DNA of 32,000 nt from Candidatus Saccharimonadota bacterium (lineage in GTDB: Bacteria > Patescibacteriota > Saccharimonadia > Saccharimonadales > UBA4665). The notes under the pieces are model-generated. The model saw only the letters and a program-made list of their open reading frames with translations. It was not told the DNA's origin and did no database searches. Location of the stretch: contig CP064992.1 of the NCBI GenBank assembly GCA_016699935.1, positions 540,001-572,000 on the forward strand. The letters are read 5' to 3'. Shown one piece after another: positions 4,520 to 28,643 of this stretch (positions within the stretch are counted from its first letter, which is position 1; every line of letters starts with the position of its first letter). The translations under genes were made by a program, and so were the position numbers.

Positions 4520-6224
4520 TTGGTCGCGCAAGGTAACATGGTTCATTGGTCGACACCTAAACAGGCGCGTATAGTTGGTGGCGTATTGTTGGTCATTGTC
4601 ATTGCCCAGTGTGCGTATCCTGCAAATAGAACGTTACCTTTTGTGCGCCTTGATGGTAAGCGGATTGGCTATCAGTCTGGAAAACAGATTTCCCAGATAC
4701 TTATAGACCAGTACAGTAATGTGCCTCTTACGTTGCATGTAGAAGGGCCCGCCAAAGACCAGTCGCGAAAAACTACTGTGGCGCCCGCAGGCTTGCAACC
4801 AGACATCGACCGTATCTTGCATGACATCAAGGCCTACCCGTGGTGGCAGCGGCTGATCCCCTTTAGCGGGCTCGTCAAAGGACTCTCCCACAATCAACGG
4901 GTAGTAGTGGCATTTGACGAACAACGTTTTAAAGAATATGCCGAGGGTGAGCTCAAATCTTGCAAAGTTTATCCCAAAAACGCCGGAGTGAAGGTACTCG
5001 AAGGGGCCGTAGTGCTTGACGCTGCAAAGAAGGTCAGGAGTGTTCGCTCGATACGCTGCATAAGGAGCTGCAGACTGTTTCGCTTGAGCCAAATGGAATC
5101 CACGCCTACGTAAACGCCAATACAATCAAACCGCTTCGATCGGACAAAGATGTAGAAAGGAAATTGCAAGAGGCCCAGACGCTTACCGAACGCAAACTAT
5201 CATTGAAACTTGACGATAAAGATTATCCGGTCGCAAAGTCCACCCTCGCCTCGTGGCTAGTCATAGCCGAAGATCCTACAGATAAAAAGAAACTGACGAT
5301 TGATGTTGATACGAAGCTAATCCGCGACTATTTGACCGAAATGCAGAAGAAAATATACATTGCGCCAGGCGTTACGACAGTGCGCACGACAGACGGTGTT
5401 GAGACAGATCGCACGGAGGGTGTTTTTGGGCGCGGGCTTAACTTTACCGCTACGGCCGATGCGCTAAAAAAACAGCTCCTAGACGGTAACGGCATTGTAG
5501 CCGGCTCGCTTATTACGCTGTCTCCGCGAGTGGCTTACCTGCGTTCGTACTCCGCTTCGCGTGCCGGGTTGCAGGCGTTACTGAATGATATTGTCAAAGA
5601 TAAAGGTGATTATGCGATATCAGTACGTCTCAGCGATGGCACTACGGTGAGTGCCAATGGCACAAAACGGTATCATCCGGCAAGTACCTACAAACTGTAT
5701 GTGGCGTATAGTTTTCTGAAGCGAATTGAAAGTGGTGCTATCAAATGGGATGATGCGGCCACTGCGGGCAAAAAAGTATGAGCCAGTGCTTTGACGTCAT
5801 GATATTAAACTCCGACAACACGTGCGCGGAATGGCTCGGCGAGAAGATTGGCTGGTCCAACATTCAAAACGAAATCCGGGCTCTCGGACTGAGCAATACG
5901 AGTACGATTCGGGGGGCTATGTACTCCACGCCCGATGATGAAACGCTATTTTTACACAAACTGCAGTATGGCAACATTCTGAAAACATCCGAACGCGATC
6001 GTTTGCTCGATGTCTTGAAGCGCCAAATCTACAGGCAGGGGATACCTGCAGGTGTGCGTGTAACGGTAGCTGATAAAGTTGGGTTTCTCGACGGAAAACT
6101 TCATGACGCTGCTATTGTGTATGGCAGCAAAACGTATATGCTCACGATTATGTCGCAAGGAAGTTCGTGGGCGCAGATTGCCGATGCAGCGAGGCAGATT
6201 AATGAGCAGTTGAACAGAATGTGA
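4520..6224 (+). CDS. Membrane-anchored serine hydrolase with a class-A beta-lactamase/DD-peptidase-like C-terminal domain; two frame breaks (about 5030 and 5770-5775)
   Basis: Three track ORFs (4520-5113, 5164-5781, 5778-6224) read as one protein. An N-terminal TM segment (VGGVLLVIVIAQCA) is followed by the SxxK motif (PASTYKLYVAYSF), an SDN motif (MILNSDNTCAEWL) and a KTG-like DKVGF. The second break is repaired by adding an A to the run at 5770-5775. Confidence 0.65.
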
Positions 6225-6372: not shown

Positions 6373-7448
6373 TTATTTACTGACGTTGAATTTGAACTCA
6401 ACAACGTCTTCTGGCTGCATAACATAGGTTTTGCCCTCGGTGCGGACTTTTCCGGCGGCACGCGCATTGGGAAGGGAGCCAGCTACAATGAGGTCCTGGT
6501 AGTTTACGATGTCTGCGGCGATAAAGCCGCGTTCAAAGTCGCCGTGGATCACGCCGGCGGCTTGTGGGGCGGTCGCGCCACTAGGAATCGTCCAGGCTCG
6601 GACTTCTTTATCTCCAGCCGTGAGGTAGCTCTGGAGTCCGAGTGTGTCATATGCGGAGTGTATGAGCTGGACGAGACCGGATTCTTTCACATTGTAGCTT
6701 TCGAGTAGCTCGCGACGGTCGGCTTCGTCCAGGCTGCGAAGTTCGTCTTCGAGTTTGGCGCAGACGAAGAGTGCAGGGGCCGGTGAGACAAGTGTTTTCA
6801 CCTGGGATTGGAATTTTTCATCTGTCAGCTTCGCTTCATCTAGATTGAACAAATAAATTATAGGCTTCAGTGTCAACAGTTGCAGTTCCTGGCGTAGCCA
6901 GCTGCACGATTCATGATTCATAATTCCAGGTTCACTCCAGAGCGGACGTCCCTCGTCGAGGATAGATTTTACCTGTTCTACAAACTCTACAAGCGGTTTG
7001 AGTTTCGCATTTGCTTTCGCCTCTTTTTCGAGCCGGGGAAGTCGGTTTGTCACGGTCTGGAGGTCGGCCAGGACAAGTTCGGTATTGATAACATCGATAT
7101 CTTTGGCTGGGTCATGCGCGTCATCAACGTGTGTGACATTGGGGTCGTCAAATGCTCGTACGACTTGGACGATAGCGCCGCAGGTACGGATGTGCGCGAG
7201 GAATTGGTTGCCCAGGCCCTCACCCTTGCTCGCGCCAGCCACGAGCCCAGCGATGTCTACAAAGGTTACCGTGGCGGGTTTGATGGGCGCGATGTGGTAT
7301 AGCTCGCTCAGTTTTGAAGCCGCTCATCAGGCACGGGCACAATGCCGGTGTTCGGCTCGATGGTGGCAAATGGATAGTTTGCTGCCAAGATGTTGCTATC
7401 GGTCAGCGCATTGAACAGCGTCGACTTCCCAACATTCGGCAAACCCAC
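6373..7448 (-). CDS. ychF: Ribosome-binding ATPase YchF; native first 5 codons displaced to 28141-28156 by the island; one frame break at the T-run 7312-7315
   Basis: The minus strand reads (I)[45 protein letters not shown], then [42 protein letters not shown]... through to the TGS-like C-terminus ...[18 protein letters not shown]. In the YchF frame a TAG lies two codons upstream of the GTG at 7448-7446. Confidence 0.9.
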
Positions 7449-9052
7449 TATGCGCTATGCTCAACATCTAACCCTACCTTTTTTACAGTTAATGATGTTG
7501 CATACGCTGGAATCTTTCCGCATATTCTTACTTTCTCCTTCGTTGCTATTACTTTATCAACTATTTTACGTACCGTAAAAAGCTTTTCATCGTAGCCCAG
7601 ATTTTCTAGGTACTTCTTAAAAGGCTCTACAGACGATTCTAGATCTATCTCTTGCAGTTGGGCTAACTTATTCGCTTCTGGCTTGTTGATCAGGTCTAGC
7701 AGTTCTTTACGACGCCTTGCAACACTATTCATTTGATCTGTGTATACGACTTCAGACATAGTGTCCATGCCCCAAGCTTTCACGTAACGACGTTCTTCTT
7801 GTTCAAGTGCTTTTTTCTGCAAGAGTAGCTCATCTTTTTTAGGGCTTTGACCTGCAATGAGCTTTTTTTCTTCTGCGTAACGATCAAGCTGCTTCTGTAA
7901 TAGGGTAGGGTCTGTCATTAATTCGCAAAGTTTGGACCAACCTACTGCATCTAGTACCTGTACATTCACTCCTGCTTCAAAGCATGTGCGTGGCTTAGGG
8001 AACTTGAGTAGACGGTCAGTACAGCGGTAGTAGAAATGACCATTTTGACCCTCACCAGTACGGGAAGTACCGCAAGCACACTGTATCAAGCCACCGAACA
8101 AGTAAGGATTCTTCTTGAAGCGTTGACTTAGCTTACCGTTGCTCTTAATTTGAGATTGAACCTTTTGATACAGTTCGTCACTAATAATGCGTGGTGCTTC
8201 TACCTCTAGCCATTCATCACGTGGTCTGGTTTTACGACTACCTTTTAATGAATGACGGTGCTGGTATTTCTTCTGAGATTTAGCCATAGGATTTTTAGTT
8301 ATTACACTCTCAGACTTGTAGTAATAATGTTTACCAATATAGGTTTCGTTTTTCAACATACGGTGAATTGGACCATTCGACCATGTGTCACGCTTCTGTT
8401 TTTTTGGCGGTATGCCCAAATCGTACAAACGTCGTATGACTTCTTTAATAGAAACGCACTCAATGCCAATCCATTCAAATATCATTTGTACGACTTTGGC
8501 TTCTTCTTCGTTAATAACAAATTTGCCATTAATTTTGTCGTAACCTTTGCCTTTGATTGGCACATAATCATACCCGTAAGCTGCTTGATAGCCTAGTAAC
8601 TTCCCAGAGCGTACTTTATTGAGTTTCCCAATACGAAAGCGTTCAGAAATCTTCATACGCTCATACTCGTGGAACATTCCCATTACACCGCCCAAAAGCT
8701 TTTCTTCAGGTGAGACACCATTAATGTCGTGTAAGCTATGAAACTCAATGCCTAATTGGATTAGTTCCTGTATTACTATTTCCTGATGGAAGAATATACG
8801 GGCAAGGCGACCCTTGTCGTAGACGTATAAAATATCAAACTTCTTTTCAAGTGCGTCAGCTCGCATAAGATCAAGTGAGGGACGTTCTAGTATTGCACCT
8901 GACCAACCCTCGTCAATATATATACAGCTTTCCAGAAGGGTATTACCGTCAGCTTTAATTTTTGGCTTAATCTCCGAAAGTTGGTTTTGTACAGTTTGCT
9001 CTTCTTTTTGAAGTTCGGTACTAACCCTTGCGTAAAGTGCTGCACGTAACAT
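7448..9052 (-). CDS. Large serine recombinase (integrase)
   Basis: Intact 534-aa ORF. The resolvase-type N-terminus is [12 protein letters not shown], with the catalytic Ser context. A recombinase domain follows, then a zinc ribbon ([20 protein letters not shown]) and a C-terminal coiled-coil-like region. The stop TAG sits exactly at the island-host junction. Confidence 0.9.
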
Positions 9053-19363: not shown

Positions 19364-21543
19364 TTTCAGCCCAGACTAATATTCAGAAGATCTTAAATGC
19401 ATCAGAGACTTATTATGAGATACCAAATTTTCAGCGGCCATATGCATGGCAGACAGGTAATGCGAACGAGTTTCTAGTAGATCTTGAAGACAGCGTAGCA
19501 AAACGCAAAAATCATTACTTTGGCACGGTCGTTTTAGTTGAAGAGACTGCAAGTACTTATTCAGTAGCTATCATTGACGGACAACAGCGTGTCACTACAT
19601 CGCTACTCATGGTAACGGCTATATATCATCTAGTAAAAAAAGACCCGTCACTAATTGAGAATCCTGAGACAACACCAGAGCTAATACGTGATCGCTACCT
19701 GTTTAATGCAAACATCGACAAGAATAAAGTGAAGCTTCGTACTGTTACGACTGACAACCAGATCTTGCAGCACATTTTTGATAAAGACGGTGAAGAGTCA
19801 CGACTAGAGCCACGAGAACGAATGAGTAACATCTATCAGGTGTACTCGACCTTTCGTAAGTACTTTTCGACTCGCAAGGGTCTAGATAAATACATCGAAG
19901 GACTAAAGTTGTTTGAAGTCATTTCAATTACTCTCAATGGTAATGACGATAATCCGCAGAGAGTTTTCGAAAGTATAAATTCAACGGGTAAGCCACTAAC
20001 AGACGGTGACAAAATCCGTAACTTTGCTCTCATGCTAGGTAACGACAAGCTACGCAATCATGTATACGACAATTATTGGTCGATCATTGAAGAATCACTT
20101 GTGGATTCGAACAAAGATAATATTACTGATTTCTTTCGTAGTTACATCATGTCGAAACGACAGGCTATTGTTCGCTTAGATGCGGTTTATCCTGAGTTTA
20201 AGAAGCAGTTTGATAGGCAGGTAGGAGAGTCACAAGAAGAAGTCAAAATTGACGCTTTCTACGCTGATATAGTTGAGTCGTTGGGCTTCTATAGGCTTCT
20301 GAAGCTCATAGATACTGATGATTTTGAAAGTCAGTATAAGGGCATTTGTGAAACCATATTTAAGATGCGGTATCTTCAGATTGACCTATATATTCCTTTC
20401 GCTATGAACGTATTGCGTCATCACGCAAATGGCGAACTTACTGATCAACAATTCGAAGATGTGTTTAAGCTAATCGAGACATATTTCTCACGTCGTATCG
20501 TGAGCGGTATTGCTACAACCAGTGTGGACCGATTCTTAGCTTCATTACACAAAGATATTCTTAGTTATCAGAAAGATAGTCCTGACGCAGATTATGTCGA
20601 TGTTCTTCGTTATATTCTTCTAAATCGTATTGGTCAAACCCGTATACCTGATGATGCAGAATACGAAAATGCAATTCGTACTCGTGAAGCATATTACCAA
20701 AGGAATTCATTCCTTATTTACGTTCTTACAGCGGTTGAAGGTACGTCTAAAGAAGCTGTTCATACCTTGCACCAAATCTCAGACGCTAAGTTGAAATTGT
20801 CTATCGAACACGTAATGCCGCAAACACTCACAAGCAGGGACTGGCAAGAGATGCTAGGTGATGATTACGAGCGAATTCACCGTGAATATTTGCACACACT
20901 GGCAAACCTAACGCTCACAGGCTACAACTCTGAATACTCTAATCGGCCTTACGCAGATAAGATGCATCTTGAGATCAAAGATAAAAAGACTGGCGAAGTT
21001 CAGAATGTAGGATTCGCTGACAGTAAGCTTCCTATAAATGTGTGGATAGCGAAACACGATGTCTGGAATGAAGATACATTGAAAGAGCGTCAAGCATGGT
21101 GGGTAAAGAAGCTTAAAGACACATGGTCATTCCCAGTTACTTCGTTCAAACCTATCGAAGAAGACACATCTGTGTACTTACTTGAAGCTACAGACTTGAA
21201 GGGTAGGAGCATACGCTCAGTAGATGTATTTGGTGAAAAGAACTCTGTTACTACATGGTCAGAAGCTTTAGATACCATCACAGAGTCGATATATAACCGA
21301 AACCCTGAGTTTATCGAAACCATTAGTAATGATGAGTGGCTCTCGAAAATTATTCGTCAGGATGCGAGTGCGTTCAATAGCAGTGCAGAGATATTAGACA
21401 CGGGATATTTCGTGGACACTGGAAATGACACAAATACTAAGCTTCGTATTATCAACGCACTAGGTAAGCTATTCGGTCTGACTCAGGATGATATAAAGGC
21501 AGAATTGACCGCTGACAAGCATATCGAAGAAGACGAAGAGTAG
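19360..21543 (+). CDS. GmrSD-like DUF262/DUF1524 protein (type IV restriction-family architecture) with an extra C-terminal region of roughly 190 aa
   Basis: Intact 727-aa ORF. The DUF262 motifs are YEIPNFQRPYAW and IIDGQQRVTT. The DUF1524 His-Me-finger-like block is LSIEHVMPQT...LHTLANLTLTGYNSEYSN. Its start overlaps the upstream stop (ATGA). Confidence 0.85.
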   Translation: MISAQTNIQKILNASETYYEIPNFQRPYAWQTGNANEFLVDLEDSVAKRKNHYFGTVVLVEETASTYSVAIIDGQQRVTTSLLMVTAIYHLVKKDPSLIENPETTPELIRDRYLFNANIDKNKVKLRTVTTDNQILQHIFDKDGEESRLEPRERMSNIYQVYSTFRKYFSTRKGLDKYIEGLKLFEVISITLNGNDDNPQRVFESINSTGKPLTDGDKIRNFALMLGNDKLRNHVYDNYWSIIEESLVDSNKDNITDFFRSYIMSKRQAIVRLDAVYPEFKKQFDRQVGESQEEVKIDAFYADIVESLGFYRLLKLIDTDDFESQYKGICETIFKMRYLQIDLYIPFAMNVLRHHANGELTDQQFEDVFKLIETYFSRRIVSGIATTSVDRFLASLHKDILSYQKDSPDADYVDVLRYILLNRIGQTRIPDDAEYENAIRTREAYYQRNSFLIYVLTAVEGTSKEAVHTLHQISDAKLKLSIEHVMPQTLTSRDWQEMLGDDYERIHREYLHTLANLTLTGYNSEYSNRPYADKMHLEIKDKKTGEVQNVGFADSKLPINVWIAKHDVWNEDTLKERQAWWVKKLKDTWSFPVTSFKPIEEDTSVYLLEATDLKGRSIRSVDVFGEKNSVTTWSEALDTITESIYNRNPEFIETISNDEWLSKIIRQDASAFNSSAEILDTGYFVDTGNDTNTKLRIINALGKLFGLTQDDIKAELTADKHIEEDEE

Positions 21544-21545
21544 AC

Positions 21546-22697
21546 ATGGATACGTCTGGATACTTCGACCTAACAGTTCCAGAGAATAATATTGATTCGC
21601 TGACTATAAATCAGCAAGATCATTTTGATTGTAGTCTAGTGAATAATGCTACGGGCGAAACATACAAAGGGTTCATTCTTGCAAAATCGCCACAGGGCAA
21701 TAATTTAACGGTGTGTGATACAGAATTCAAACGTTCTGGCACTGACAATAAGTATCAGCCCCGACTGACATTTCGTCGAGTAGATGATGAGTTTAATGAC
21801 GTTAATGCTCCCGCAGGTTCTAAAAGTCGTAGGATACCGTTCTCAGACGGCTCAGATGGTTATCGGGAGTTTTGGAAAATGGTGGCATTTCTATTTAAGT
21901 TCAAAGAGACGATCGACTTCGGTGAGTTTGATGGAACCTACCAAGTAATATCTGCTGAACAGCTAAAAGAGTATATGAATAATGCTTCTAATAATGACGC
22001 AATTATTAAAATGGCTGATGAGCTTGAAATTGAAGTCTCTGAGTTACTTAGAACAAAATCTACAATTAGACTACTAAAGACCTATAAAGAAAAATTAGAA
22101 GAATTTATCGAGACAAATGCTTCTGAAACAGATGTTCAAAATTGGCTTGATGAAGACGGTCACAAGTACAGGCAGCAGCGATGCATGATATTTGGACTTG
22201 AGTATATAGACTTTCAGCGTGAAGGTTCGTTGAGTTCGAAAAAATTCGATGTACTTACTAGGGTAGGCTCTAAGTATGTGGACCACGTGCTTATTGAATT
22301 GAAAAGCCCAGCAGATGATATATTTGAAGTTACTCAATCTAGCAGTATTAATAACCCTACTAGCACCTATCAGATTCACAAGCATCTAGCACGTGCTATA
22401 CCTCAAATTCTAGAGTATAAGAGCACACTTGAAGCAAAGCCAGCAGGTGATGCGGAGTTGGAGGAATTAGGTATTAAAGGGCAAGCTCATATCGGGAAGT
22501 GCATTATTGTAATTGGGAAACATAGTGATGATGCACGTTGGAAACAGAATCGAGAAAATCTAGTACGCTCTCTTGGATCTACACTAGAGATTTGGACATA
22601 TTCAGAGCTGTTCAATAAGCTTTCCTCAACGATTGAAAATCTAGAACGAATTAAAGAGCACGAAGAACCTGCTGAAGATTTATCGGACTGGTTTTAA
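21546..22697 (+). CDS. Shedu-like DUF4263 nuclease-family protein with an unrecognised N-terminal domain
   Basis: Intact 383-aa ORF. The C-terminal half has a PD-(D/E)xK-like pattern typical of DUF4263: ETDVQNWLDEDGHKY...KKFDVLTRVGSKYVDHVLIELKSPADDIF...LARAIPQILEYK...GKCIIVIGKHSDD...LEIWTYSELF. Confidence 0.7.
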   Translation: MDTSGYFDLTVPENNIDSLTINQQDHFDCSLVNNATGETYKGFILAKSPQGNNLTVCDTEFKRSGTDNKYQPRLTFRRVDDEFNDVNAPAGSKSRRIPFSDGSDGYREFWKMVAFLFKFKETIDFGEFDGTYQVISAEQLKEYMNNASNNDAIIKMADELEIEVSELLRTKSTIRLLKTYKEKLEEFIETNASETDVQNWLDEDGHKYRQQRCMIFGLEYIDFQREGSLSSKKFDVLTRVGSKYVDHVLIELKSPADDIFEVTQSSSINNPTSTYQIHKHLARAIPQILEYKSTLEAKPAGDAELEELGIKGQAHIGKCIIVIGKHSDDARWKQNRENLVRSLGSTLEIWTYSELFNKLSSTIENLERIKEHEEPAEDLSDWF

Positions 22698-24178
22698 TGA
22701 TGATGCAACTATCAAAATCTGATTACATGCTTTATCTCGCACACCCTGCATGGTTGTGGATGAAAAAACATGCAAAGACCTTACTGCCAGCTATAGACCC
22801 TGCAACACAAGCAATTTTCGATACTGGTCACGAATTCGAACAGTACGCAGAAGCTTTATTCCCAAGTGGTGTCACGCTTGGATTTAGTGATTATGATGAG
22901 TATCTTTCATTACCTGAGAGGACCACACGGGCACTAGACGATGGAATTCTCACGATATTTCAGGGTAGATTTGAGCACGAACAACTAACTTTTATTTGTG
23001 ATGTGATTCAGGTCGTTGATGGTAAAGAGATTGACCTGATTGAGATTAAGTCGAGTACAAGTGCTAAGCCTGAGCATATTACAGACCTTGCGTTTCAGAT
23101 GTTCGTTTTAGAAAAGTGTGGGTATACCGTAAGAAATGTAGCGGTAGTACACGTCAATAATCAGTATGTTCGTAATGGTGAAATTGACGCTAAGCAGATC
23201 ACGTTTAGAACTGATGTCACTGATGCAGTTAAGGCTGCGAAAGATTTTACGATAACAAAGATCGACGAAGCATTAGAAACAATGTCTCTGACTGAATGCC
23301 CAGATGCATCTCCTCTACATGCGAGCACTAAATCATTTGGTGATTGGTTGCAAATTTACAAACACTTAAAGAACCCAAAGGCTGGAAGTATTTACGACTT
23401 ATGCCAGATGGATGCGAAGACATTAAGTAACCTTCAACAAAATAACATTACACACGTAAAAGACATTCCACCTGACTTTGTTCTGAAGCCAAAGCAACGA
23501 CTTCAAGTTGAGGCACTTCGACAGGGAAGACCTACGATCAGTAAAGACAAAATCAAGTCATTCTTAGATTCATTTAGCTACCCTCTATACTTTTATGATT
23601 ACGAAACATTAAGTAGTTTAGTGCCTTACTTTGATGGTCTAAAGCCTTACCAACAGTTACCGTTTCAATATTCGATTCATATTTTAGACAGCCCAGATGC
23701 AGAGCTAAGACATGAAGAGTTCTTGCATCGTGATAGTGCAAATCCTGCTGAAGCACTAACGAAATCTCTCGTCTCACATATAGGGGATGAGGGGACAGTA
23801 CTTGCGTGGAATATGGGTTTTGAAAAGAGCTGTAACACATTACTTGGTACGATAGTGCCAGAGTATGCAGATTTCTACAGTAAGCTTAATGAAAGAATTG
23901 TAGATCTAATGATTCCTTTCTCGCAGAATTGGTATGTTGATGCTGATTTTTGTGGGAGTGCATCTATCAAGAAAGTCCTACCCGTACTCGTACCATCTCT
24001 GTCACACAAGGACCTAGATATTTCTGATGGTAGTTCAGCTCAGAGGCTATGGATGGAAGCTATTCTTGATGGGAAGCGACCTGACGAAAAAGAAAAGATT
24101 CTTAATGACTTGCTCGATTATTGTAAGCTCGACACACTTGCTATGGTTGAAATATTTAACGTTTTACGAAAAATATAG
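22697..24178 (+). CDS. DUF2779 domain protein (RecB/Cas4-like PD-(D/E)xK N-terminal part and an RNase-H-fold-like C-terminal part)
   Basis: Intact 493-aa ORF. The N-terminus LSKSDYMLYLAHPAWLWMKKH is the typical DUF2779-family start. It also contains EIDLIEIKSSTS and the C-terminal YFYDYETLSSLVPYFDGLKPYQQLPFQYSIHIL. Its start overlaps the upstream stop (TAATG). Confidence 0.7.
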   Translation: MMMQLSKSDYMLYLAHPAWLWMKKHAKTLLPAIDPATQAIFDTGHEFEQYAEALFPSGVTLGFSDYDEYLSLPERTTRALDDGILTIFQGRFEHEQLTFICDVIQVVDGKEIDLIEIKSSTSAKPEHITDLAFQMFVLEKCGYTVRNVAVVHVNNQYVRNGEIDAKQITFRTDVTDAVKAAKDFTITKIDEALETMSLTECPDASPLHASTKSFGDWLQIYKHLKNPKAGSIYDLCQMDAKTLSNLQQNNITHVKDIPPDFVLKPKQRLQVEALRQGRPTISKDKIKSFLDSFSYPLYFYDYETLSSLVPYFDGLKPYQQLPFQYSIHILDSPDAELRHEEFLHRDSANPAEALTKSLVSHIGDEGTVLAWNMGFEKSCNTLLGTIVPEYADFYSKLNERIVDLMIPFSQNWYVDADFCGSASIKKVLPVLVPSLSHKDLDISDGSSAQRLWMEAILDGKRPDEKEKILNDLLDYCKLDTLAMVEIFNVLRKI

Positions 24179-24214
24179 TGGTGCGTGTGGTGGGGTAGCA
24201 ATTATCTGGAAAAA
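24170..24214. repeat. Left copy of a perfect 45-bp direct repeat (aaaatatagtggtgcgtgtggtggggtagcaattatctggaaaaa)
   Basis: Identical to 27794-27838. It overlaps the last three codons and the stop of the DUF2779 gene. Confidence 0.95.
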
Positions 24215-25722: not shown

Positions 25723-27735
25723 ATGGATCATTCGCACCACGAACACCAGCATATGGAACATCAGGAACACGATAAACACGCTGGTCATTCAGTGGCTATG
25801 TTTAAGGATAAGTTTTGGTTGTCACTAATACTGACGATACCCGTCTTGGTTTATTCCGAGATGATACAGCAGTGGTTACACTTCACACCGCCAGCATTTC
25901 CAGGCTCTCAATACGTTCCATTTGTGTTTAGTACCATCATCTTTTTCTATGGTGGTATGGTGTTCATCAAGAGTGCGATGGGCGAATTAAAAGCTAGGTT
26001 GCCAGGTATGATGACTTTAATCAGCCTGGCAATCATCACGGCATACGTCTATAGCGTTGCGACACAGTTCTTTATCGGTGGTGAAGGCTTTTTTGGGAAT
26101 TAGCCACACTGGTGACAATTATGTTGCTTGGTCATTGGCTAGAAATGGCTTCGGTAGCAAAGGCTGAAAATGCTTTAGACGCAATCTCAAAGCTACTGCC
26201 AGATAAGGCTGAAAAGTTAGTTAATGGAAAACCAAAGATGGTTTTAGTAAGCGAACTAAGTGTTGGCGACTTGGTATTAGTAAGACCAGGCACGAGAATA
26301 CCGATTGACGGTGTAATAACAGACGGGACATCATCAATAGATGAGGCTGCTATCACTGGCGAGTCAAAACCTGTAAGTAAAACCGTCAATGATAAGGTTG
26401 TTGCTGGAACCGTAAATCAAGACGGCTCAATCAAAGTTAAAGTTACGGAACTTGGAGATGATACTGCACTTGCAGGAATTATGCGACTTGTTGCAGAAGC
26501 TCAAAGTTCAAAATCTAATGTGCAAGTATTGGCGGATAAGGCAGCTTTCTACCTAACCATCATAGCTATTGTTACAGCTATCGTAACGTTCATTGTGTGG
26601 CTAGTTCTTAAAGATGTTGGCTTTGCATTAGAGCGGTCAGTAACAGTTTTGATAATTGCTTGTCCTCACGCTCTTGGCTTGGCGATACCTTTAGTTGTAT
26701 CAATCTCTACTACACTGTCAGCGAAGAACGGTTTACTAGTACGAAAGCGATTAGCTCTTGAATCAGCACGTAAGCTAGACTGGGTGCTATTTGATAAGAC
26801 AGGTACTCTAACTAAGGGCGAACACGGCGTAACTGATATATGGGCAACCAAAGGTTACTCACAAGAAGACGTACTGCACCTAACAGCGAGCCTTGAGCAA
26901 AACAGTGAACATATTGTTGGTAAGGGTATCGTTCGTAGGGCAGAATCAGACCACGTACACCTTGATAAGGTTGCTGACTTCAAAGCATTGCCAGGCTTAG
27001 GCGTACAAGGAACTTTACACGGCAACGAAGTGTATATTGCAGCCAGCTACCGCTATATAGAAGAAAATAAGCTTACTGTTCCTAAAGAAATTGCCAATGC
27101 CGTAAAGCAAGCTGCCAAAGAGGGTAAAACCGAAGTTTATTTGATTACTAATAAAAAGGTAATTGGTGCTTTGGGTTTGGCCGACATAGTACGGGAAGAA
27201 TCGAAACAAACCATTAAAACCCTGCGAGAAATGGGGATTAAGACGGCTATGATCACTGGGGACACCGATGAAGTTGCTGCCTACGTCTCAAAGCAACTAG
27301 GACTAGACCAGTACTTTGCAGAAGTACGACCCGAAGATAAGTCTGCGAAAGTGAAAGAGTTACAAAAACGGTCAAAAGGTTGCAATGGTTGGTGATGGTA
27401 TAAATGATGCACCCGCACTTACCCAAGCAGACATTGGCATAGCTATCGGTGCCGGTACGGATGTCGCTATAAAATCAGCGGATATTATCTTGGTAAAGAG
27501 CAATCCTCAAGACGTAGTTAAAGTAATTAACCTGTCAAAGGCTACGTACAAGAAGATGACACAGAACTTAATATGGGCAACAGGCTATAACATCTTCGCA
27601 ATACCTCTGGCCGCTGGCGTATTGTACGGTGCTGGCATAGTGCTTGCACCTGCACTTGGCGCGATTCTAATGTCAGCATCGACTGTAGTAGTAGCCTTTA
27701 ATGCACAGCTTCTACGTAGAGCAAAGCTCAGTTGA
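25723..27735 (+). CDS. copB: P1B-type copper-transporting ATPase of CopB type (His-rich N-terminus, CPH motif); two frame breaks (T-run 26089-26094 and A-run 27364-27368)
   Basis: The N-terminus [22 protein letters not shown] is His-rich. Further motifs are TGES, the transmembrane CPHALGLA, the phosphorylation site FDKTGTLT, and [12 protein letters not shown]. The three track ORFs join when one base is added to each homopolymer. Confidence 0.9.
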
Positions 27736-27793: not shown

Positions 27794-27838
27794 AAAATAT
27801 AGTGGTGCGTGTGGTGGGGTAGCAATTATCTGGAAAAA
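27794..27838. repeat. Right copy of the perfect 45-bp direct repeat
   Basis: Identical to 24170-24214. It lies 58 nt after the copB stop. Confidence 0.95.
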
Positions 27839-28140
27839 AACTCCCGTGGCCTTGCTCAATTATATTTCGAGTAAAAGATGAACGACATTTACAACATACA
27901 TTGCAGACTAGTAAAGGTCTGGTGATAGTTAAATCAGTAGGAATGACAGTTCACCATTTACCACCAGCAGTTTCTTGTAGTTCTTTAATCTGTTGAGGCG
28001 TATAGCCTCGTGTTCTTTTATCTAAAGGAGGCATCGAGAAGGTTATATCAAATGGTATTGTTGCGTCTTGTGAATACCAATGCTTAGCATCTAACCCAAC
28101 CTCTCTATCAGAATTAAGTTGTGTTGTGTCTCTTGTATCG

Positions 28141-28156
28141 CTATAGAAAGACTCAT
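28141..28156 (-). other. ychF: Displaced native 5' end of ychF (ATGAGTCTTTCTATAG, MSLSI-) at the right island junction
   Basis: Fusing 28156-28141 to 7447 and downward on the minus strand gives [22 protein letters not shown] -10-like TATACT (28171-28166, minus strand) lies 9 nt upstream of the ATG. Confidence 0.6.
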
Positions 28157-28277
28157 GATGTTTTCAGTATAACAGAGGAGGGCGAGTCTTTTATAGGGTG
28201 AGTTTATGATTGTGAGTTTAGATAGTTTTTTTCGCTCGCACTCTCCTGTATGATGATATGAGGAAATCATAAGCATT

Positions 28278-28643
28278 ATGTTGAGAATTCGTACAGTCGC
28301 AATCAGCTCCTTAGCCGTCATTGTACTGCTTGGTATAGGTGCTATCGTGTACGACCGACTCCGATCTGAGCCTCCTATCAAACCAGACGACACCACTTCA
28401 CCGCAACAAGTTACATATAGCGCTGACATTCAAGCACAGATTGCGGCAGGCAAACAGTACCCCGAAGGTTCGTATGAGTGGACGAACGCTATGCTTAATG
28501 CCGCTGTCTATGCAGCAAACCATAGGCTGTGTAGCCAGGCGACCGATTTACTGGATACTGTCCAAAATGTGGAAAATAAAGACGGAGCTGGTGTTGATAT
28601 CGGCGTCGTTAAGGAGCGTATCGATGCAAGCTGCCAAGCCTAA
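28278..28643 (+). CDS. Membrane-anchored hypothetical protein
   Basis: Intact 121-aa ORF with an N-terminal TM helix (VAISSLAVIVLLGIGAIVY). Composition is host-like. I recognise no family. Confidence 0.45.
   Translation: MLRIRTVAISSLAVIVLLGIGAIVYDRLRSEPPIKPDDTTSPQQVTYSADIQAQIAAGKQYPEGSYEWTNAMLNAAVYAANHRLCSQATDLLDTVQNVENKDGAGVDIGVVKERIDASCQA

What the first reader, a model, noticed from the sequence alone, without database searches (positions are those of the whole stretch)
21546..24178. Shedu-like DUF4263 nuclease with a novel N-terminal domain, translationally coupled to a DUF2779 protein
The DUF4263 core (…DHVLIELKSP…AIPQILEYK…IVIGKHSD…IWTYSELF) occupies only the C-terminal half. The first 190 or so residues (MDTSGYFDLTVPENNIDSLTINQQDHFDCSLVNN…) match nothing I recognise. 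Shedu N-terminal domains are thought to be the variable sensing part.

The stop codon overlaps (TAATG) the start of a DUF2779 protein. That protein combines a RecB/Cas4-like motif (DLIEIKSS) with a C-terminal YDYET… module. Shedu is described as a single-gene system, so a fixed DUF4263-DUF2779 pair would be a new two-gene variant. It would also give DUF2779 a first functional context.
Basis: partly seen in the sequence, partly recalled or inferred. Interest (0 to 1): 0.75.

Follow-up and report, generated by a model that had tools for sequence, protein, structure and literature searches.

The report
Shedu nuclease beside roaming DUF2779 exonuclease
The two genes are real, but they are not a dedicated pair: an ordinary Shedu defence nuclease sits in a mosaic anti-phage gene cluster whose last gene, DUF2779, closes many unrelated defence clusters in these small-genome bacteria, and that wider pattern is the lead worth testing.

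Summary
Observation confirmed. ORF 21546-22697 is a Shedu SduA (DUF4263). ORF 22697-24178 is a DUF2779 protein. The stop and start share one base (TAATG).

Interpretation only partly holds.
- N-terminal domain: it has no Pfam, PDB or BFVD match. But on its own it hits an existing PADLOC SduA subfamily model (E 2.7e-9), and it forms a small family found only at the N-termini of Shedu-sized proteins.
- The pair is not fixed. DUF2779 directly follows SduA in 5 of 26 loci of this clade, and in 0 of 14 below 72% identity. No DUF2779-centred locus has SduA as its immediate upstream gene.
- Identities are discordant between loci (SduA 91% with DUF2779 58%; 76% with 40%). The junction was therefore re-formed repeatedly rather than inherited.

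SduA is gene 5 of a probable six-gene cluster: MmeI-like RM, DEAD helicase, T5orf172, GmrSD, SduA, DUF2779. The cluster lies on a low-GC island that starts with a serine recombinase.

DUF2779 is a Cas4-like plus DEDDy dual nuclease. It recurs as the tightly spaced last gene after type I, IIG/IIL, III, IV and ISP restriction systems, Gabija, SIR2-HerA and Avs4 (28 of 61 loci upstream versus 0 of 57 downstream).

Best reading: an autonomous Shedu plus a shared DNA-end-processing module. That role is inferred, not shown.

The parts
7448..9052 (-). Large serine recombinase at the left edge of the low-GC island (about 7.4-28 kb, GC about 40% against 48-50% in the flanks)
   Evidence: Pfam Resolvase + Recombinase + Zn_ribbon_recom; GC profile
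13433..16260 (+). MmeI-like type IIL/IIG restriction-modification gene, read as at least 5 frame pieces
   Evidence: Pfam MmeI_hel, MmeI_Mtase, MmeI_TRD, MmeI_C on the fragments. tblastn of the intact L112 orthologue hits frames 2/1/3/2/1. One junction inspected; it lies at an A5 run.
16226..18188 (+). DEAD/ResIII helicase, read as 3 frame pieces (658 aa when intact in L112 and L115)
   Evidence: tblastn 91-92% identity to the L112 helicase in frames 2/1/3; junctions at A5 runs; Pfam DEAD/ResIII on orthologues
18200..19363 (+). T5orf172/MUG113 (GIY-YIG-like) protein. It is the most frequent upstream partner of this SduA subclade.
   Evidence: Pfam. Directly upstream of SduA in L005, L006, L112, L114, L115 and L131; upstream with GmrSD in between in the window, L001 and L113.
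19360..21543 (+). GmrSD-type (DUF262 + DUF1524) type IV restriction enzyme, a swappable cassette
   Evidence: Pfam GmrSD_N and GmrSD_C; PADLOC Orf5/HEC-06 E 1.9e-100. Only 57% identical to the L001 and L113 copies although the flanking T5orf172 is 96-98% identical and SduA 83-99%.
21546..21950 (+). SduA N-terminal domain (aa 1-135): beta-rich domain plus one helix, with invariant C29, C57, P72, R73, G105, F109 and W110
   Evidence: AF2 pLDDT 83.6; alignments A1 and A4; PADLOC PDLC00391 E 2.7e-9; no fold match in PDB or BFVD; 100 clusters in 1.84e9 representatives
21957..22646 (+). SduA linker plus DUF4263 PD-(D/E)xK nuclease (aa 138-367). Catalytic D235, E251, K253, Q287; motif I near D202.
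   Evidence: Profile alignment to B. cereus SduA 8TI8; Pfam SduA_C aa 226-355; these residues are invariant in A1; motif positions from Gu et al.
22653..22694 (+). SduA C-terminal acidic tail ending in DWF
   Evidence: 52 of 120 homologues end in F after an acidic stretch, several with D[IV]PF
22697..23296 (+). DUF2779 N-terminal Cas4/RecB-like PD-(D/E)xK nuclease domain (D102, E116, K118, Q134), without the Cas4 four-cysteine cluster
   Evidence: Residues invariant in a 40-sequence alignment; Foldseek hits Cas4 8D3L (E 1e-4), EXO5, the AdnAB nuclease and ACE1; weak PADLOC Cas4 hit
23582..24178 (+). DUF2779 C-terminal DEDDy-type 3'-5' exonuclease domain (D301, E303, E376, Y475, D479)
   Evidence: Pfam PF11074; residues invariant; RNase H-like 3'-5' exonuclease clade per PMC3985635; DEDD(y) assignment per PMC13621843; weak RNase T fold hit
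24170..24214 (+). Left copy of a perfect 45-nt direct repeat. It overlaps the last 9 nt of DUF2779.
   Evidence: the repeat finder D1
27794..27838 (+). Right copy of the 45-nt repeat. The two copies bracket a 3.6-kb copper module (CsoR, DUF305, CopA pieces).
   Evidence: the repeat finder D1; Pfam; L002 lacks the module and rejoins the window at 27937

Best explanation
The window carries a mosaic anti-phage island on an integrated element of a Saccharimonadia-type (Patescibacteria) genome. Within it, MmeI-like RM, a DEAD helicase, T5orf172, GmrSD, SduA and DUF2779 form one co-directional run.

SduA is an autonomous, canonical type-1 Shedu. By homology to B. cereus and E. coli SduA it should be a tetrameric PD-(D/E)xK nuclease kept in check by its N-terminal domain. 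As with about a tenth of all Shedu genes, it is embedded in a restriction-type operon.

DUF2779 is not Shedu's partner. It is a dual-polarity exonuclease: a Cas4-like 5'-end nuclease fused to a DEDDy 3'-5' exonuclease. It is carried as the last, tightly coupled gene behind whichever DNA-cleaving defence genes lie upstream.

Inferred mechanism. The upstream enzymes (RM, GmrSD, Shedu; elsewhere Gabija, SIR2-HerA, Avs4) create breaks or free ends in invading DNA. DUF2779 then processes those ends from both strands. That would make the damage irreversible and release nucleotides, or resect ends for repair of self-damage. RecBCD or AddAB does this job in other bacteria, and CPR bacteria are reported to lack RecBCD.

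Shown: gene identities, catalytic residues, context statistics, mosaicism. Inferred: co-transcription, nuclease polarity, and the role downstream of restriction.
For: Identity of the genes.

SduA contexts:
- Inside type I operons, HsdM-HsdS-SduA-HsdR (L012-L021, L026).
- After MmeI-helicase-T5orf172 (L005, L006, L112, L114, L115).
- After type ISP-Pif1 (L132).
Gu et al. report 602 of 5,499 Shedu genes inside RM systems.

DUF2779 architecture: AF2 pLDDT 92 with Cas4, EXO5 and AdnAB fold hits. Both catalytic sets are invariant in 40 sequences of 37-86% identity. Literature.

DUF2779 context:
- In 80 genome loci from distinct species, 63 of 71 upstream neighbours are co-directional.
- RM or defence genes lie among the three upstream genes in at least 28 of 61 loci. 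One search gives 24; I added 4 by hand. The downstream figure is 0 of 57 (Fisher p 2e-10).
- The median gap to the defence gene is 0 nt, and 26 of 29 gaps are 30 nt or less.
- Upstream families include type I, III and IV restriction enzymes, Avs4 and MzaA, PLD-SNF2 + Eco57I methylase, HerA and AAA_13.
- Downstream neighbours are mostly housekeeping genes.

Independent samples:
- 3 of 3 further homologues follow a defence or defence-like operon: SIR2-HerA, type III + AAA_13, and ResIII/SNF2/Eco57I + SMC-like + DUF2130.
- IMG/VR contigs show Gabija GajA-GajB then DUF2779, type ISP, HsdR and AlwI contexts.
- Plasmids of other phyla show NACHT, GHKL or AAA+ NTPases followed by DUF2779.

Mosaicism: discordant per-gene identities between loci.

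CPR reported to lack RecBCD: PMC6509639. Solo-Cas4 is enriched in CPR/DPANN and lies next to RM in DPANN: PMC5704561.
Against: - No experiment or transcript data were available. Coupling is inferred from spacing, in genomes that are compact anyway: 41 of 73 downstream gaps are also 30 nt or less.
- DUF2779 also follows rpoC-dnaG-rpoD in Paceibacteria-type genomes (L072, L087). It is quasi-essential in JCVI-syn3.0. Both point to a housekeeping role independent of defence.
- It is always the last gene, which equally fits a core gene bordering an insertion hotspot.
- The loci are the 80 best of more than 544 hits to one query lineage.
- Genes were called with a simple ORF rule. Defence labels came from clusters I annotated after seeing the upstream genes, so the up/down contrast is partly post hoc. 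The Pfam scan of downstream genes mitigates this.
- Within the closest SduA subclade, 5 of 12 loci have DUF2779 directly downstream. Some specific benefit of the pair is therefore not excluded.
Confidence: 0.5

Rival explanations
1. Hotspot-anchor model. DUF2779 is a vertically inherited housekeeping repair or recombination nuclease. The DNA just upstream of it is a preferred landing site for mobile defence operons. Adjacency to SduA, and to every other defence gene, then has no functional meaning.
For: - DUF2779 follows rpoC-dnaG-rpoD in L072 and L087, with small insertions at the same place in L060.
- It is quasi-essential in syn3.0.
- Related loci share conserved downstream genes: c9-FtsK-c5, or the c22-c41 pair. 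Thioredoxin/DsbA-type proteins are the commonest family among immediate downstream neighbours.
- The upstream operon differs between DUF2779 copies of 72-81% identity.
- RM genes that are 70-84% identical sit next to DUF2779 copies only 36% identical (L003 against L078).
- DUF2779 is always terminal, never internal.
Against: - Junctions with unrelated upstream genes are repeatedly 4-nt overlaps or 5 nt or less. Random insertion beside a core gene with its own promoter would not be expected to produce that.
- DUF2779 is itself carried on mobile DNA: inside the low-GC island of this window, on plasmids of four other phyla directly behind large NTPases, and twice on one IMG/VR contig.
Confidence: 0.3
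2. SduA and DUF2779 form a dedicated two-gene Shedu variant in which DUF2779 is needed for, or specifically enhances, Shedu defence.
For: - One-base stop/start overlap in the window.
- In the subclade of at least 72% identity, 5 of 12 loci have DUF2779 immediately after SduA, in four different upstream contexts and with four DUF2779 lineages: 93, 79, 58 and 40% identity.
- A two-component Shedu exists (KELShedu).
Against: - 7 of 12 close relatives, and 14 of 14 more distant ones, lack DUF2779 next to SduA.
- 0 of 71 DUF2779 upstream neighbours are SduA, and only L075 has SduA anywhere in the same operon.
- The homology search found more than 3,179 DUF2779 homologues but only 176 for this SduA clade.
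- The identities of the two genes are uncorrelated between loci.
Confidence: 0.07
3. The functional unit that includes SduA is the MmeI-like / DEAD helicase / T5orf172 cassette. SduA would be its added effector, and DUF2779 would be incidental.
For: - T5orf172 is directly upstream of SduA, or upstream with GmrSD in between, in 9 loci of the close subclade. Start and stop overlap in several.
- The three-gene cassette recurs (L005, L006, L112, L114, L115, L065).
- Nearly all SduA proteins of this subclade carry the acidic ...DWF tail, which could be a docking peptide.
Against: - In L033 the slot after T5orf172 holds Avs4 instead.
- T5orf172 and SduA identities are discordant: 65% against 91% in L112.
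Confidence: 0.1

Closest known systems
Shedu SduA, type 1 (B. cereus SduA, PDB 8TI8/8TI9; E. coli SduA, 8PS4)
   Same: C-terminal DUF4263 PD-(D/E)xK nuclease with motif II-IV residues conserved. A linker region alignable to B. cereus SduA, and almost the same length (383 against 382 aa). An N-terminal regulatory domain. Location in a defence island.
   Different: The N-terminal domain belongs to a small separate family with no detectable fold match. I could not show it is the sPC4/Whirly type of B. cereus. Many members carry an acidic C-terminal tail ending in F.
Shedu genes embedded in restriction-modification or BREX operons (Gu et al., bioRxiv 10.1101/2023.08.10.552793)
   Same: This clade lies inside type I, IIL, ISP and type II-like operons, as in the 602 of 5,499 cases reported.
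   Different: Here the hosts are Patescibacteria, and in some loci the operon ends in DUF2779. That gene does not appear in the parts of the preprint I read.
KELShedu two-component system (bioRxiv 10.1101/2025.09.13.674623)
   Same: A DUF4263 nuclease working with a second gene. This shows that Shedu is not always single-gene.
   Different: KELA is a dsDNA-binding protein that forms a complex with KELB. The partner proposed here is a downstream dual nuclease, and the pairing is not conserved.
DUF2779 / PF11074 proteins, e.g. MMSYN1_0389 of JCVI-syn3.0 (PMC13621843; Majorek et al. PMC3985635)
   Same: The same two-domain architecture, Cas4-like PD-(D/E)xK plus DEDD(y) 3'-5' exonuclease, with both catalytic sets conserved and no full Cas4 cysteine set.
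   Different: The literature treats it as an uncharacterised, quasi-essential nuclease. The position as terminal gene of many defence operons seen here was not found in any of the 7 papers that mention DUF2779.
Solo-Cas4 of CPR/DPANN organisms (Hudaiberdiev et al. 2017, PMC5704561)
   Same: A Cas4-family nuclease outside CRISPR loci, over-represented in small-genome lineages. It lies next to RM genes in DPANN and was proposed to act in defence or repair.
   Different: DUF2779 lacks the Fe-S cysteines and carries an extra DEDDy exonuclease. That study did not describe this fusion.
RecBCD/AddAB degradation of restricted DNA (established knowledge of E. coli and B. subtilis; not tested here)
   Same: The proposed role is processive removal of DNA ends produced by restriction. 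The nuclease fold is related to the RecB/AddB/AdnAB nuclease domains.
   Different: No helicase motor is present in DUF2779. The activity is unknown.

Membership tests
Shedu (SduA) | DUF4263/SduA_C domain above the curated threshold | tested here: met
   PF14082 scores 41.9 bits against a cutoff of 27. 8 PADLOC SduA models match. Profile hit to 8TI8, E 7e-10.
Shedu (SduA) | PD-(D/E)xK catalytic motifs I-IV present | tested here: met
   D235, E251, K253 and Q287 align with B. cereus motifs II-IV and are invariant in 16 sequences. Motif I lies near the invariant D202.
Shedu (SduA) | Single gene sufficient for anti-phage defence | not testable with these tools
   Needs plaque assays.
Shedu (SduA) | Homotetramer with N-terminal domains gating the nuclease | not tested
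   No multimer prediction was available. Only the N-terminal domain was modelled, as a monomer.
Shedu type 1A (sPC4/Whirly N-terminal domain) | N-terminal domain with the sPC4/Whirly fold | tested here: inconclusive
   5 of 26 SduA-clade loci, and 0 of 14 below 72% identity. 0 of 71 DUF2779 upstream neighbours are SduA.
   SduA/DUF2779 identities to the window pair: 97/93, 91/58, 75/79 and 76/40%.
   Needs genetics and biochemistry.
DUF2779 (PF11074) | PF11074 domain above threshold, with DEDD-type acidic residues and Y-x3-D | tested here: met
   132 bits against a cutoff of 23.3. D301, E303, E376, Y475 and D479 are invariant.
DUF2779 (PF11074) | N-terminal PD-(D/E)xK (DUF83/Cas4-like) domain with D...ExK | tested here: met
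   D102, E116 and K118 are invariant. Foldseek matches Cas4 8D3L at E 1e-4.
Cas4 proper | Four-cysteine Fe-S cluster module | tested here: not met
   In the N-terminal Cas4-like domain no cysteine is invariant across 40 sequences. The only invariant cysteine, C476, lies in the exonuclease domain. C101 is lost in divergent members. The same was noted for MMSYN1_0389.
Cas4 proper | Association with cas1/cas2 or a CRISPR array | tested here: not met
   No cas gene appears in the window or in any annotated neighbourhood.

The most novel reading that the evidence does not exclude
DUF2779 is a previously unrecognised common accessory of DNA-targeting immunity. It would be a Cas4-like plus DEDDy dual-polarity exonuclease that is co-expressed as the terminal gene of many mechanistically different defence systems: type I, IIG/IIL, III, IV and ISP restriction, Gabija, SIR2-HerA, Avs4 and Shedu. 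In Patescibacteria, which reportedly lack RecBCD, it would supply the end-degradation or end-resection step that those systems otherwise borrow from the host. Plasmid contexts suggest it may also occur with NTPase sensors in other phyla.
Probability: 0.4. Interest if true: 0.7.

Novelty: new member of a known kind. Interest (0 to 1): 0.45.

Why it matters
As stated, the finding would have added a two-gene class to Shedu. The evidence does not support that: the Shedu here is an ordinary RM-embedded member of a catalogued subfamily.

What survives is a testable lead on an orphan family. DUF2779 is widespread and quasi-essential in the minimal cell JCVI-syn3.0, and it has no known function. In Patescibacteria it is strongly and directionally linked to the 3' ends of diverse DNA-cleaving defence operons.

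If that link is functional, it would explain how lineages without RecBCD finish off, or repair after, restriction-type cleavage. It would also define a shared module that defence-system finders currently miss: the protein matched no PADLOC model beyond weak Cas4 hits.

Tried and rejected
I re-ran it with database proteins only.
- I tried to place the N-terminal domain in Gu et al.'s N1-N59 scheme through NCBI accessions. The cluster look-up returned no accessions.
- tblastn of SduA against PLSDB plasmids: no match.
- I hypothesised that the island split ychF and that its N-terminus lies at the right border. Rejected: ORF 28091-28429(-) is unrelated, and the ychF N-terminus is probably just frameshifted upstream.
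- I first read the split MmeI and helicase genes as pseudogenes. That is now uncertain: all three junctions I inspected lie at A5 runs, and other genes in the window are split too.
- A first up/down defence count was wrong because unclustered genes were mislabelled. It was corrected.
- The 45-nt repeat core was not found in any fetched locus.
- Promoter and terminator scans gave no more sites than shuffled sequence and were not used as evidence.
- A literature search for a Cas4-like/DEDD defence protein found nothing relevant.
Full report
**1. Observation**

- Pfam places SduA_C/DUF4263 on aa 226-355 of the first protein (E 1.5e-10) and DUF2779 on aa 298-423 of the second (E 1.5e-38).
- PADLOC gives eight SduA models for the first protein and only weak Cas4 hits for the second.
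- The junction is TTT TAA TGA TGA TGC. Stop and first ATG share one base, and two more in-frame ATGs follow.

**2. Surroundings**

The two genes end a co-directional run:
- T5orf172/MUG113 protein, 18200-19363.
- GmrSD type IV restriction enzyme, 19360-21543. Its start overlaps the previous stop (PADLOC Orf5/HEC-06, E 1.9e-100).
- SduA, then DUF2779.

Upstream lie MmeI-family fragments (13433-16260) and a DEAD helicase in pieces (16226-18188). In relatives these are intact genes of about 930 and 658 aa, immediately before T5orf172. All three frame junctions I inspected (one in MmeI, two in the helicase) are at A5 runs. The breaks may therefore be homopolymer errors rather than decay.

The whole block lies in a 40% GC segment (about 7.4-28 kb) between 48-50% GC flanks. 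That segment starts with a large serine recombinase and a Toprim protein. Names on homologues and loci point to Saccharimonadia/Patescibacteria.

**3. The Shedu protein**

A profile of 16 homologues matches B. cereus SduA (8TI8) over residues 138-367 (E 7e-10). D235, E251, K253 and Q287 correspond to catalytic motifs II-IV of that enzyme and are invariant. Only about 135 N-terminal residues are therefore a separate domain.
- That domain is well conserved, including two invariant cysteines.
- It models confidently as six strands plus a helix (pLDDT 83.6).
- It has no Foldseek neighbour in PDB or BFVD.
- It is not new to catalogues. Residues 1-200 alone hit PADLOC SduA model PDLC00391 at E 2.7e-9.
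- A profile search of 1.84 billion representatives finds 100 clusters. The full-length hits carry the domain at the N-terminus of 330-430 aa proteins; the rest are short, probably fragmentary sequences.
- Gu et al. list 59 unnamed Shedu N-terminal families. I could not determine which one this is.

**4. Is the pair fixed?**

*Centred on SduA.* The evidence is a metagenome scan plus exact-protein look-ups, analysed by tblastn and clustering.
- Among 26 loci with enough downstream DNA (window included), DUF2779 follows SduA in 5: the window, L002, L112, L132 and L003/L130.
- All 5 are in the subclade at least 72% identical to the window's SduA (5 of 12). It is 0 of 14 in more distant members.
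- The distant members mostly sit inside type I operons, HsdM-HsdS-SduA-HsdR.
- Close relatives L113, L114 and L115 have T5orf172(-GmrSD)-SduA and then unrelated genes.
- L005, L006 and L131 have an unknown 546-aa protein in that position.

*Centred on DUF2779.* A genome scan gave more than 544 relatives, of which the best 80 loci were kept.
- None of 71 upstream neighbours is SduA.
- Only L075 has SduA in the same operon, separated from DUF2779 by HsdR.

*Divergence is incongruent.* SduA/DUF2779 identities to the window pair are 97/93 (L002), 91/58 (L112), 75/79 (L132) and 76/40 (L003).

The pair is therefore re-assembled repeatedly, not inherited as a unit.

**5. What DUF2779 is**

The AF2 model (pLDDT 92) matches Cas4, EXO5, the AdnAB nuclease and Argonaute-associated Cas4-like proteins, and weakly RNase T.
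- D102, E116, K118 and Q134 are invariant across sequences down to 37% identity. So are D301, E303, E376, Y475 and D479.
- The Cas4 cysteine cluster is absent.
- This agrees with Majorek et al. (RNase H-like 3'-5' exonuclease clade plus DUF83) and with the 2026 analysis of the quasi-essential MMSYN1_0389.

**6. Where DUF2779 sits**

In the 80 species-level loci:
- 63 of 71 upstream neighbours are co-directional, and 42 lie within 30 nt or overlap.
- Cluster-based labels put RM or defence genes among the three upstream co-directional genes in 24 of 61 loci, against 0 of 57 downstream.
- With later annotations (Avs4, GmrSD, AAA_13, ResIII-SNF2) the upstream figure is at least 28 of 61. This is my hand tally. 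Fisher p is 2e-10.
- The gap between the defence gene and DUF2779 has a median of 0 nt.

Upstream families seen:
- Type I HsdR, type III Mod/Res and GmrSD.
- MmeI/Eco57I-like methylases with PLD-SNF2 helicases.
- HerA, AAA_13, Avs4 (full-length PADLOC match) and MzaA.

Immediate downstream neighbours are mainly thioredoxin/DsbA, aminotransferases, a tRNA synthetase and similar genes.

Independent samples agree:
- Three further homologues follow SIR2-HerA, type III + AAA_13, and a ResIII/SNF2/Eco57I + SMC-like + DUF2130 cluster.
- IMG/VR contigs show GajA-GajB-DUF2779 twice, plus type ISP, HsdR and AlwI contexts.
- On plasmids of Campylobacterota, Cyanobacteriota, Negativicutes and Betaproteobacteria, DUF2779 follows NACHT, GHKL or AAA+ NTPases in defence-like neighbourhoods.

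Exceptions exist:
- In L072 and L087 it follows rpoC-dnaG-rpoD.
- Other upstream neighbours include a SAM synthetase and an AhpC protein.

**7. Interpretation**

The SduA-DUF2779 adjacency is best explained by two independent habits:
- Shedu genes embed in restriction-type operons. This is already reported, 602 of 5,499.
- DUF2779 closes such operons.

The operon is a mosaic. Against L001, T5orf172 is 98% and SduA 99% identical, but GmrSD only 57%. In L033 the slot between T5orf172 and DUF2779 holds Avs4 instead of GmrSD + SduA.

I commit to DUF2779 acting as a shared DNA-end-processing nuclease downstream of whatever cleaves DNA upstream. CPR bacteria are reported to lack RecBCD, and solo Cas4-family nucleases are enriched in such genomes.

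The main rival is that DUF2779 is a housekeeping gene flanking an insertion hotspot. The rpoD context, the syn3.0 quasi-essentiality and its strictly terminal position favour that rival. The near-zero spacing to unrelated upstream genes, and DUF2779's presence on islands, plasmids and viral-type contigs, argue against it. Genomics alone does not separate the two.

**8. Novelty**

- The Shedu is a new member of a known kind.
- The DUF2779 architecture is known.
- Two-component Shedu systems are known.
- None of the 7 papers mentioning DUF2779, nor a Cas4-like/DEDD search, describes DUF2779 as a recurrent terminal gene of defence operons.

That last pattern is the part worth following up.

Noticed in passing
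window 24170-24214 and 27794-27838: A perfect 45-nt direct repeat. Its first copy contains the last 9 nt of DUF2779. The two copies bracket a 3.6-kb copper module (CsoR, a 121-aa protein, DUF305, CopA pieces). The related contig L002 lacks the module, carries a different 280-aa gene there, and rejoins the window at 27937. The site just 3' of DUF2779 is therefore also a cargo insertion point.
   Followed up: partly
window 14207-14211, 16436-16440, 17953-17957 (also the CopA pieces 25723-27735, ychF about 7242, beta-lactamase 5164-6224): The frameshifts that split the MmeI-like gene and the helicase fall at A5 runs (three junctions inspected). Several other genes in the window are split too. This may be homopolymer error in the assembly rather than pseudogenisation. 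The four genes 18200-24178 are intact.
   Followed up: partly
window 22653-22694 (SduA aa 370-383) and homologues P0001-P0120: 52 of 120 SduA homologues end in an acidic tail that finishes with F (...DPLDWF, ...EDIPF, ...DDVPF). This resembles the C-terminal tip of bacterial SSB (DDDIPF, from general knowledge). The type I-embedded members mostly lack it. It may be a docking or autoinhibitory peptide.
   Followed up: partly
window 19360-21543 compared with L001:1770-3983 and L113:3067-5280: GmrSD is only 57% identical between contigs whose flanking T5orf172 (96-98%) and SduA (83-99%) are nearly the same. This points to cassette replacement inside an otherwise conserved operon.
   Followed up: partly
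window 13433-19363; L005, L006, L112, L114, L115, L065: A recurring three-gene cassette of MmeI-like RM enzyme, DEAD/ResIII helicase (about 658 aa) and T5orf172 protein, with overlapping starts and stops. PADLOC gives only weak PbeA hits for the helicase and nothing for T5orf172. It may be an undescribed RM-linked system.
   Followed up: partly
L032:114-4889, L033:2262-7004, L061: A 1,590-aa protein directly upstream of DUF2779 is a full-length Avs4 (PADLOC PDLC02169, 1,971 bits). L033 reads DEAD helicase, T5orf172, Avs4, DUF2779, parallel to the window's operon.
   Followed up: yes
L005:6742-8382, L006:8143-9786, L131:8146-9786: A conserved 546-aa protein with no Pfam or PADLOC match directly follows SduA, with start/stop overlap, in the position DUF2779 occupies in the window. 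A 135-aa unknown protein comes after it.
   Followed up: no
L130:1-2538, L134:9584-17295: Type IV secretion genes (TrbC and TrbL pilins, PrgI, TraC-like, TraG/VirD4-like) lie next to the defence-operon/DUF2779 block in two Saccharibacteria contigs. FtsK/SpoIIIE genes follow DUF2779 in several others.
   Followed up: no
L119 and L122 (IMGVR_UViG_3300032737_000190): One 55-kb viral-type contig carries two DUF2779 genes about 17 kb apart.
   Followed up: no
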